Assembly: GCA_051362555.1 (NCBI GenBank)
Contig: CM120640.1
Span: 52,988,788 to 53,052,787, forward strand
Source of the DNA: Lingula anatina
Taxonomy: Eukaryota; Animalia; Brachiopoda
Direction of reading: 5' to 3'
DNA length: 64,000 bases
Part shown: positions 17,980-20,900 of the stretch, in pieces
Numbering within the stretch: position 1 is the stretch's first letter
How the letters are laid out: every line of letters begins with the position of its first letter
The notes under the pieces: model-generated
What the model was told of the DNA's origin: nothing
Database searches by the model: none
Seen by the model: the letters and a program-made list of their open reading frames with translations, nothing else
Made by a program: the position numbers and the translations under genes

Positions 17980-20900
17980 ATGTTTTATGTTTTACATGTG
18001 CTACTTTGGGTGATAACATGTTATTGTATCCATCCATCAATCGCTGTGAACAATGGCACATATTTACAACAGAGGGCAAAGCTGTTATTGACAGAACACT
18101 CTATGCGAACAGGAGGGAAAATAGAATTGACAGATAAGGAAAAGACTGTCAACACGGTCCTGATGAACCACAAATCTGAAGAAATCCGCCATGGCAAAAA
18201 AACCGGCTTTTATCCAGCCGCCCTACATTTTTTCTATTCCAAGGCATATATTGAAGATAGTGAAATATATGATATTGTAAGGAGAATGCCAAAAGGTAAG
18301 GACTAAAGGTCAGCTTGCACTTGCACTAAATATACATACTACTCCCCAAGTATTGCTCCTGAAATAGCTCTAGGGATTCATTGCACTTTGACACACATGT
18401 TGTAAATGATGATATACTGTTAAGGTACTCAGTACTTAGTCTGGGGGTAAGACAAACATTCAGAAGTCCGGTTTAAATCGTATGTTACCTAAAGTAACTG
18501 TGCAAGATATGTTGTACATGAGCATTACGTGTACTTTAGACACTGTTAACTGTCATTGAACAAAATGCTTTTGTTTTATTTTACACAGTATCTTTTAAGA
18601 ATTTATAAGTAAGAACTCTGTATATATTTTAAACTGGAATGACAAATAGATTGTATAAGAAAATTAGTTTAGGAGAAATAATAACATAGAAACACATTTT
18701 GCATTATAAGATGTAAAACAAAATGAACAAAAAGCATATAATGAAGATTTTCAGGTATAAGACATTTCCTGTTTTAGACTGGATTCCCATGCTTAGATTG
18801 ATCCAAATATCTGTGGGAATGGTCCCTTAGACCTCATTCCCATAAAAGCACCATCTGTCTAGTGGATCAACCCAACTCTGCGCAGACTCTGGCAGTCAGC
18901 TTTATTGAATGACATGCCTCTTTTTGCTTCCAACAAACTTGTATAATCATTAGCTGCTCTGTATTCTACTTAAAGCCAGGAGGAGTGTTAATCTGTTAAA
19001 CTGATTGCACTCAGCATGAATCTCTGCAGAGTTGGGTTGATCCATATAGACCATTTTGTTTATGGGAATCTGCCATTAAAAATATGATTTGTCATTGGTC
19101 TTTTTCATTGATTCCTATTTCCTACAATGATTCTGTTATCACATATTTCTTTAATCCAGGTGCTGCTTTATCACTGCACGATGTAACAATGGTTGATGTT
19201 GATTGGTTGGTTAAGAATGTCACATACAGACCAAATGCATATATGTGCTTTGACCAAACTACAGGAAAACTCCATTTCCACTTTTTCAACACCCTCCCAA
19301 TGAGTCAAGGTAACTATAAAATGCTTTTTGTGATTTGTAGGAGCAGCTCTCCATCTGCACGATGTGTCTTTGGTTGATGTACAATGGCTGGTGAAGAATG
19401 CCACTTATAGACCCCACGCTTGCATGTGCAACAACACAAAAACAGGAATCCTCCATTTTCGGTTCTTCACTTCTATACCATCTAATCCAGGTACTATTTT
19501 CTTTTTTTCTGTGGGAGCAATTGCTAGAACCCAGTTGAACTTAACGAAGTTACTTATATATTTGGTAAAGATAAGAAATGTATTTATTTTCTCAAAATTT
19601 ATGATGGGGTTGGCTAAAATATTTGAAAGACCTCAAAGTTTTATAAATCAAAATAGTCAATAAAAGAAATAAATTATGTTAATGAAGTTTGCACTTTCTG
19701 AATTTTACTGGTTAATTGGTACTGTTCCTTGTTTTGGATAGATTGTAAAGGTGGTAGTATGATCTGTAAATCAAACTGAGTATTGATTACAGAAAAAAGC
19801 AATTGAGTGCACTGCATATTTACTTGTACTAATAGCTGGATCACCATCTCTAGACATGTGTAGCATATGTAACAGTTTCCAAGGGGGAGGGTATCTTTTC
19901 TGTTCTAAAGTGGACCTCAATTGCAAAATTCACATGTGATAATATAAAAGCCAGGTGAAGTTTTGATGAAGGCTGGACCTTTTTCTTGGCAAAAGTGTGT
20001 CTTCTATGAACCTCATATCTTTTTCAAGGCCACAGGCCTGGGTAGTATCCTTGTATGATACAATCTTGTTTAGGGTAAGGGGTGATCCAGAGTTACGAAC
20101 AGGTTACATTCTGATAGGTTGTACGCAAGTACACTGTCACAGTATGCAGTATATAGTATTAAATAGGTATGTCATGGCAGGTTTTAGAGTTTCCCCATGA
20201 ATACAGAGCTGTATATGATTTACTAGATTAGTCTGCATACTGTAGGCTTAGAAAAGTTCAATGGTTTCTGATTACACATAAACTAACCATACTAAACTAC
20301 AACCAGTGTTTGCATCTTAGGAAAATTAGTTGCTGGACCGAAAGTTCAGCTATCTTGAAAAGTAGCTTGCTCGAATGTCTGCCGGGTGGGAAAACTTCTC
20401 AACCTGTTCTGAAAGTTGTCGGCCCCAGTCCAGCCTTAATTTCTAACACTGACTACAACCATCAACAATCCTTGCAAACTTTATTTAGTGCCAAAGCACA
20501 GCCATAAGTAGGCCTATTATTAAATTTTTAACAAATTCCATATCAATGGTTTGAAGTATAAAAGTAGTAAAACACATTTCACATTTGAAAAGATGTTTTT
20601 ATTGATATCAAATCGATTTTAATAAATTTCCAAATTTGAATATTACAGATTGCCCTTGGAAAACACTGGAGTCATGGAGACTAGCTTATGGAAATACTAC
20701 AGAGTTTGATGAAGTGTAAGTATTTTTCTTGTGATTTGAACTGACTGTTAAGTAAAATAAGTTGCAGTGCCTTTACATATGAGGTTTGACTAAAGACTTT
20801 GAAATCTAATTTCTCTTTAGAGTTTTGTTGTTGAAACTGGTCATAAATGTGATGGCTAAAGCAAAGCTGACTGATGTTAAAATACTTTTTTTTCTTCAAA

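What the first reader, a model, noticed from the sequence alone, without database searches (positions are those of the whole stretch)
19160..19490. ADA2 enzyme/pseudo-enzyme switch: tandem mutually exclusive exons toggle the catalytic zinc ligand (HLH vs SLH)
Seen: two paralogous 150-nt exons with identical phase, both open and both with canonical splice sites. They are diverged at many synonymous positions yet conserved in protein ([25 protein letters not shown] vs [25 protein letters not shown]). Exon 2a has TCA (Ser) where 2b has CAT (His). Known: in ADA2/ADGF the HxH of GAALHLHD supplies two Zn ligands needed for deamination, and the family is also credited with growth-factor roles. The downstream catalytic motifs (HAGET, GHG, SDD) are shared and intact. 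Inference: one gene makes an active secreted deaminase and a Zn-site-altered isoform that may be an adenosine binder, a dimer-partner inhibitor or a growth-factor-only form. I know of no description of such a switch, but I could not search.
Basis: partly seen in the sequence, partly recalled or inferred. Interest (0 to 1): 0.9.

Follow-up and report, generated by a model that had tools for sequence, protein, structure and literature searches.

The report
Splice switch disarms a brachiopod deaminase
In the lamp shell Lingula, the gene for secreted adenosine deaminase 2 has two diverged copies of one exon, both spliced onto the first exon in RNA reads, and the rarer copy has serine in place of a zinc-holding histidine, so the gene likely makes an active enzyme and a predicted inactive twin.

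Summary
The locus is the Lingula anatina ADA2/ADGF gene. Exons 2a (19160-19309, SLH) and 2b (19341-19490, HLH) are 150-nt duplicates, 31 of 50 residues identical, separated by 31 nt, below the ~50-nt steric limit, so mutual exclusion is likely physical. RNA reads join exon 1 to both: 9 joints to 2a, 25 to 2b (4 runs). The 2a-to-exon-3 joint was not among those listed and rests only on RefSeq isoform X2, an automatic model. Exon 2a is not decaying: dN/dS about 0.19, family-profile score equal to 2b's, and Ser110 is the only departure at 49 columns invariant in 48 homologues. Ser110 matches human His112; H112Q lacks activity but is still processed. Best reading (0.55): a minor, selected pseudo-enzyme isoform that also carries a different putative receptor-binding (PRB) segment, likely acting by binding. 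A growth-factor-only role is unlikely. Not shown: activity, protein, regulation, conservation in other brachiopods. No description was found in the searches run. New variant of a known kind.

The parts
17980..18295 (+). Coding part of exon 1: hydrophobic signal-peptide-like N-terminus and dimerisation helices, ends RMPK-G
   Evidence: donor used in reads to both 2a and 2b
19160..19309 (+). Exon 2a (minor, SLH): strand beta-1 with Ser110 in place of the first Zn-ligand His, plus first half of the PRB region
   Evidence: exon1^2a joints 0, 0, 5, 4 in X1, X4, X7, X2; RefSeq X2
19171..19173 (+). TCA (Ser110), aligned to human His112; differs from the 2b codon at all three positions
19310..19340 (+). 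31-nt spacer, GT..AG; the best branch-point-like motif (TAAC, A at 19313) overlaps the 2a donor. Retention shifts the frame and stops translation after residue 177
   Evidence: branch point inferred, not mapped
19341..19490 (+). Exon 2b (major, HLH): canonical Zn motif, extra sequon N136 and extra Cys133
   Evidence: exon1^2b joints 2, 2, 15, 6 and 2b^exon3 joints 17, 6, 14, 14; RefSeq X1
20649..20715 (+). Exon 3 (Cys157, partner of Cys135 in the conserved PRB disulfide by homology)
21001..21211 (+). Exon 4
21776..21903 (+). Exon 5
22353..22558 (+). Exon 6 (HAGET: Zn ligand His355, catalytic Glu358)
22825..22982 (+). Exon 7 (dimer Trp361, GHG with His383, PISN)
23463..23665 (+). Exon 8 (SDDP: Zn ligand Asp440, Asp441)
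25264..25420 (+). Coding part of last exon to the TGA stop; both isoforms are 531 aa

Best explanation
The Lingula ADA2 gene carries a tandem duplicate of exon 2, both copies are spliced onto exon 1, the 31-nt spacer likely lets only one copy into each mRNA, and the minor copy is predicted to give a folded, secreted, catalytically dead ADA2 that likely works by binding rather than deamination. Shown: the duplication, use of both acceptors (about a quarter of exon-1 joints go to 2a), selection on the 2a peptide, and loss of one of four Zn ligands with all other invariant residues kept. Inferred: (1) U1 on the 2a donor and U2 on the 2b branch point cannot sit together, because the whole spacer is shorter than the ~50-nt donor-to-branch-point threshold; (2) 2a is joined to exon 3 to give a 531-aa protein; (3) His110Ser weakens or empties the Zn site, as human H112Q abolishes activity while the protein is still processed; (4) the dead form keeps the substrate pocket and dimer surface and has its own PRB segment, so it most likely binds adenosine-containing or surface ligands, alone or in mixed dimers with the active form. 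The duplication appears to have happened on the lineage leading to Lingula, after its split from the other phyla sampled.
For: Exon1^2a joints: 9 of 34 exon-1 joints, 26% (95% CI 13-44%), GT..AG, in 2 of 4 runs from two studies. No 2a^2b or exon1^exon3 joint among the 15 listed. RefSeq X1 and X2 differ only within exon 2. dS 1.54, dN 0.29, ratio 0.19. Profile of 150 homologous segments scores 2a 81.3 and 2b 79.9 bits; 2a has the commoner invertebrate residue at 12 of 19 differences, 2b at 6. TIGR01431 scores 618.3 and 617.0. Of 49 columns invariant in 48 homologues, the 2a form departs only at His110. His is present in 150 of 150 non-Lingula segments and 75 of 81 hits of a profile-free search, the other 6 not covering the site. 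Neutral decay over half of dS kept the other 14 conserved residues in 0 of 20000 runs; after a first hit to His, reaching Ser while keeping all 14 had probability at most 0.005. Human H112Q disrupts Zn coordination (PMC12273558) and lacks activity with moderate processed glycoform, a form made only by variants with residual secretion (bioRxiv 2023.10.25.564037). Steric threshold ~50 nt (PMC7969005, PMC5740500). 2a and 2b group together, support 94/83, below the tool's starred level.
Against: The 2a^exon3 joint is not among the joints listed (5 weaker ones hidden, 3-read threshold), while 2b^exon3 has 51 reads; at the exon-1 ratio about 18 would be expected. Depth at the start of exon 3 leaves room for at most 4 and 3 such reads in X7 and X2. 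Junction counts are noisy (X1: 2 at exon1^2b, 17 at 2b^exon3) and the 4 reads in X2 come from 2 starts. No second species with an SxH exon was found, but no other brachiopod or phoronid was identified among the named hits. Gln and Ser are different substitutions, three ligands remain, and no activity was measured. The AlphaFold model was built on an alignment of HLH proteins and says nothing about the effect of the substitution. The binding role is inference only.
Confidence: 0.55

Rival explanations
1. The SLH isoform is still an enzyme, with lower activity or a different substrate or metal: His112, His355 and Asp440 hold the metal and a water or the Ser hydroxyl fills the fourth site.
For: Every other catalytic and substrate-binding residue is present, though most are in shared exons and so uninformative. 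ADGF substrate range can shift, as in Helix AMP deaminase. Some amidohydrolase-superfamily enzymes depart from HxH on strand 1 (recalled, no call).
Against: His is invariant in all sampled homologues that cover the site. Human H112Q lacks activity. Alanine at the second His of the motif inactivates Arabidopsis MAPDA. The specificity position after the motif (HPAMPD Thr125) is Val in both exons.
Confidence: 0.2
2. Exon 2a is a non-productive splice route: after exon1^2a the 31-nt spacer is retained, the frame shifts, translation stops after residue 177 and the mRNA is degraded, which tunes ADA2 output.
For: No 2a^exon3 joint is listed. Retention gives an early stop far upstream of later junctions. 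The spacer is too short to be removed by the usual threshold.
Against: A decay-bound exon would not need its peptide conserved, yet 2a scores as well as 2b against the family. RefSeq models 2a^exon3. The 2a donor (AAG|GTAACT) is closer to consensus than the used 2b donor (CAG|GTACTA) (consensus recalled).
Confidence: 0.13
3. Exon 2a was a second active exon for most of its history, lost the His recently, and is now a harmless relic in early decay.
For: Selection measured between 2a and 2b is an average over their history. Only one species shows the state. A local aligner can explain the codon change as a short compensating shift, which could be one complex event. 2a has non-consensus residues at its 3' end (153-155) and at 115.
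Against: The Ser codon differs from the His codon at all three positions. Stepwise neutral change to Ser with the other 14 conserved residues intact has probability at most 0.005. The 2a peptide is identical in RefSeq, whose protein differs from the window at one residue elsewhere and so reflects another haplotype or assembly.
Confidence: 0.12

Closest known systems
Human ADA2 / ADGF family (TIGR01431; PDB 3LGD, 9NTE)
   Same: Full-length member: 618 bits against a 315 cut-off; predicted fold matches 3LGD at rmsd 1.1 A over 480 columns; signal peptide-like start, dimer Trp, PRB cysteines and catalytic residues present.
   Different: One of two alternative exons lacks the first Zn-ligand His; no other sampled family member shows this.
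Human ADA2 H112Q (DADA2 variant)
   Same: Same position; loss of Zn ligand and activity with residual processing.
   Different: A disease allele with Gln, not a selected alternative exon with Ser.
OGDH mutually exclusive exons 4a/4b
   Same: Tandem exon duplicate, steric exclusion through a branch point under ~50 nt from the upstream donor, one copy with and one without a metal-binding motif (PMC7969005, passages).
   Different: The OGDH motif is an allosteric Ca2+ site and both isoforms are enzymes; here a catalytic Zn ligand is lost, and the whole spacer is 31 nt.
Drosophila ADGF-E
   Same: An ADGF without deaminase activity (PMC9598359, passage).
   Different: A separate gene, not a splice isoform. 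Its active-site residues were not compared here; the primary paper was not held.
Dominant-negative human ADA2 variants
   Same: Mutant and wild-type ADA2 co-precipitate, and some mutants lower wild-type activity (PMC12382605, passages). Both Lingula isoforms share the dimer-forming exons.
   Different: The effects there go with impaired secretion or dimerisation; H112Q does not occur in that paper's main text.

Membership tests
ADA2/ADGF subfamily | Score above the curated TIGR01431 cut-off over the whole model | tested here: met
   618.3 and 617.0 bits against 315, model positions 1-478 of 479
ADA2/ADGF subfamily | ADA2 fold with N-terminal dimerisation helices and PRB insertion | tested here: met
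   Model pLDDT 92.5, top Foldseek match 3LGD, TM 0.88/0.97; prediction only
Active ADA2 enzyme | Four Zn ligands (His, His, His, Asp): 2b isoform | tested here: met
   His110, His112, His355, Asp440
Active ADA2 enzyme | Four Zn ligands: 2a isoform | tested here: not met
   Ser110; the other three are kept
Active ADA2 enzyme | Adenosine deaminase activity, secretion, dimerisation | not testable with these tools
   Needs recombinant protein
Mutually exclusive exon pair | Tandem homologous exons of equal length and phase with canonical splice sites | tested here: met
Mutually exclusive exon pair | Both exons joined to the upstream exon in RNA | tested here: met
   9 and 25 joints in 4 runs
Mutually exclusive exon pair | Both exons joined to the downstream exon in RNA | tested here: inconclusive
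   2b^exon3 51 reads; 2a^exon3 not among 15 listed joints, 5 hidden; RefSeq X2 models it
Mutually exclusive exon pair | No transcripts with both exons or neither | tested here: inconclusive
   No 2a^2b or skipping joint listed, but depth is low and spacer retention could not be resolved in 300-nt bins
Sterically exclusive exon pair | Donor-to-branch-point distance under about 50 nt | tested here: met
   The whole spacer is 31 nt, so any intronic branch point is under the threshold; branch point not mapped
Pseudoenzyme | Loss of an essential catalytic residue in an otherwise conserved fold under selection | tested here: met
Pseudoenzyme | Measured loss of activity and a non-catalytic function | not testable with these tools
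   Inferred from human H112Q only
Pseudoenzyme | The inactive state is conserved across species | tested here: inconclusive
   No second SxH example found; no other brachiopod identified among named hits

The most novel reading that the evidence does not exclude
One ADA2 gene uses a regulated, sterically exclusive exon pair as an on/off switch for its catalytic zinc site, coupled to a swap of the receptor-binding segment. Selection has kept the dead isoform for a long time because ADA2 has a real deaminase-independent function (ligand or nucleic-acid binding, or control of the active subunit in mixed dimers). This would be a natural separation-of-function form for the open question of what ADA2 does besides deamination.
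Probability: 0.3. Interest if true: 0.8.

Novelty: new variant of a known kind. Interest (0 to 1): 0.57.

Why it matters
Whether ADA2 has functions apart from deamination is unsettled: no receptor has been validated and a nucleic-acid-binding role is proposed (PMC13751445). A selected, expressed isoform that loses exactly the residue mutated in human H112Q, while keeping every other invariant position, would be evolutionary evidence for such a function and a ready reagent to test it. It would also be a clean case of an enzyme and its pseudoenzyme made from one gene by exon duplication rather than gene duplication. The weight is limited for now: one species, and no protein data.

Tried and rejected
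No whole genome is held for this window, so Lingula paralogues and intron-length statistics could not be examined. The run search listed no indexed RNA holder; 9 raw-read runs were offered by species label and 4 of the 9 were laid. No finer view of the exon-2 region was obtained, which leaves the 2a^exon3 joint and spacer retention open. A search of shorter proteins with residues 92-175 found no candidate. The representative search gave 81 hits, none above 63% identity and none with a non-His residue at the site. Cluster members of 10 invertebrate homologues gave 23 of 23 HxH among the 34 further members, 11 lacking the motif region; the two Lineus isoforms differ only at the C-terminus. The metagenome scan could not use the alignment; with the 2a peptide, 1 of 476 pattern matches was confirmed, an HxH ADA2 exon with no tandem copy in 1317 nt. 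Earlier findings of this scan: nothing by sequence, words or place. Literature searches for a description (listings and abstract starts only, except papers read in passages) showed none; the library lacks most subscription journals. Zavialov 2010 and Zurovec 2002 were not held. Rejected: assembly artefact (third positions diverged, both acceptors in reads, both exons in RefSeq); AMP/adenosine specificity switch at the position after HxHD (Val in both); growth-factor-only form; tissue regulation as a finding (p=0.55). No complex prediction was run: the dimer surface is encoded by shared exons and a pass would follow from likeness to the solved homodimer.

Full report
Observation. Exons 2a (19160-19309) and 2b (19341-19490) are 150 nt, in the same phase, open and bounded by AG and GT. 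They share 100 of 150 nt and 31 of 50 residues. Exon 2a reads GAALSLHD and 2b GAALHLHD; the codons TCA and CAT differ at all three positions. No other exon of the gene is duplicated in the window. The spacer between them is 31 nt.

Identity. The 2a peptide matches, at 100%, a protein its sources name adenosine deaminase 2 isoform X2 of Lingula anatina. Its cluster has 2 members, XP_013397014.1 (X1) and XP_013397015.1 (X2), which differ at 19 positions, all inside exon 2. Both isoforms are thus already in RefSeq as automatic models. The window's own translation differs from X2 at one residue in exon 6, so the window is another haplotype or assembly with the same 2a peptide. Both forms pass TIGR01431 (618.3 and 617.0 bits, cut-off 315). 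The predicted 2a-form structure (pLDDT 92.5) matches human ADA2 3LGD best; this shows family membership, not the effect of the substitution.

Splicing. Four of 9 listed raw RNA runs were laid, 6 to 25% of each read. All constitutive introns were seen. Exon 1 joins 2a in 0, 0, 5 and 4 reads (X1, X4, X7, X2) and 2b in 2, 2, 15 and 6: 9 of 34, 26%, 95% interval 13-44%. The difference between runs is not significant (p=0.55). Exon 2b joins exon 3 in 17, 6, 14 and 14 reads. The 2a^exon3 joint is not among the 15 joints listed; 5 weaker joints were hidden and the listing needs 3 reads. At the exon-1 ratio about 18 would be expected, and depth at the start of exon 3 leaves room for at most 4 and 3 in X7 and X2. 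Counts are noisy, so this is a gap and a mild warning, not a refutation. No 2a^2b or skipping joint is listed. The full-length 2a mRNA therefore rests on the RefSeq model; that such models usually need intron support from reads is recalled, not checked.

Mechanism of exclusion. A donor-to-branch-point distance under about 50 nt is the proposed steric limit (PMC7969005 and PMC5740500, passages). The whole spacer is 31 nt. Its best branch-like motif has its A at 19313, the fourth base of the spacer, inside the 2a donor and 28 nt from the 3' end; 4 of the 8 other introns have such a motif 27-30 nt from the 3' end. Joining both exons would keep the frame (581 aa), so a frameshift does not police double inclusion; retaining the spacer stops translation after residue 177. 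Steric exclusion is inferred; the branch point was not mapped.

Is 2a alive? Between the exons dS is 1.54 and dN 0.29 (ratio 0.19; 49 codons, dS near saturation). Against a profile of 150 non-Lingula segments 2a scores 81.3 bits and 2b 79.9, and among 30 invertebrates 2a has the commoner residue at 12 of 19 differences, 2b at 6. In the 50-row alignment, 49 columns are invariant in the 48 non-Lingula rows; the 2a form departs at one, His110. Simulated neutral decay over 0.75 substitutions per site kept the other 14 conserved residues in 0 of 20000 runs. Starting after a first hit to the His, reaching Ser with those 14 intact had probability at most 0.005 at any distance tried. The simulations ignore indels and complex events, and a local aligner can also read the change as a short compensating shift, so a recent one-step loss is not excluded. 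In a 38-row tree of the exon peptide 2a and 2b are sisters (94/83, below the starred level, few columns), which points to a duplication on the lineage leading to Lingula.

What Ser110 does. Position 110 aligns to position 112 of the chimpanzee-cluster ADA2 used for human numbering. The Zn is held by three His and one Asp, the first two on strand beta-1 (PMC6947897 and PMC12273558, passages). H112Q disrupts Zn coordination and lacks activity yet gives a moderate amount of the processed glycoform, which arises only from variants with residual secretion (bioRxiv 2023.10.25.564037, passages and section 12). One passage reports reduced ADA2 protein in a G47A/H112Q patient's macrophages relative to a carrier (PMC9562767), so stability may still be lowered. 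His is present in 150 of 150 non-Lingula segments, 75 of 81 representative hits with 6 not covering the site, and 23 of 23 cluster members that have the motif. These samples favour canonical enzymes and would miss divergent inactive ADGFs.

More than a Zn toggle. Fifteen of the 19 differences lie at residues 126-155, in the region that a review assigns to the PRB domain with N127, N174, N185 and a disulfide needed for secretion (PMC12060026, passages). Both exons keep the N125 sequon and Cys135; 2b adds a sequon at 136 and Cys133. The swap therefore couples loss of the ligand to a different PRB surface.

Function. A growth-factor-only role is unlikely, since ADGF growth activity is reported to depend on deamination and inactive ADGF-E is not mitogenic. 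Mixed dimers are plausible because the dimer-forming exons are shared and human mutants co-precipitate with wild type (PMC12382605, passages). Simple dilution would achieve no more than lower transcription, so a binding role is the better reason for long selection (inference). No ADA2 receptor has been validated and nucleic-acid binding is proposed (PMC13751445, passages).

Novelty and verdict. The parts are known: steric exon pairs toggling a metal motif (OGDH), inactive ADGF paralogues, and the H112 disease allele. The combination, a catalytic Zn ligand toggled by an exon pair in ADA2, did not appear in the searches run, and no earlier finding of this scan matched. It is a real, expressed and apparently selected feature seen in one species, with the downstream joint and all biochemistry still open. 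New variant of a known kind; interest 0.57.

Noticed in passing
window 15640-17700, minus strand: A neighbouring gene appears to run head-to-head with ADA2: reads of opposite orientation cover 17400-17700 in the stranded runs, and open stretches at about 16200-16470 and 16960-17050 look like exons. Not identified.
   Followed up: partly
window 3117-4856: Tandem array of a 146-bp unit, about 12 copies, 80% matches.
   Followed up: no
window 26075-26400 and about 18790-18830, 20310-20350: Dispersed repeats attract many reads of both orientations with loose ends; the one at 26075-26400 lies just past the ADA2 3' UTR.
   Followed up: no
window 17400-26400, run X7: Run X7 differs from the window at many fixed positions in exons and UTRs, more than X1, X2 and X4, suggesting a divergent population under the same species label; it also uses the 2a acceptor.
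   Followed up: no
proteins P0207-P0211: The Branchiostoma ADA2 cluster includes 255-aa uncharacterised proteins without the MPKG motif and a 987-aa model, possibly a neighbouring gene fused in one annotation.
   Followed up: no
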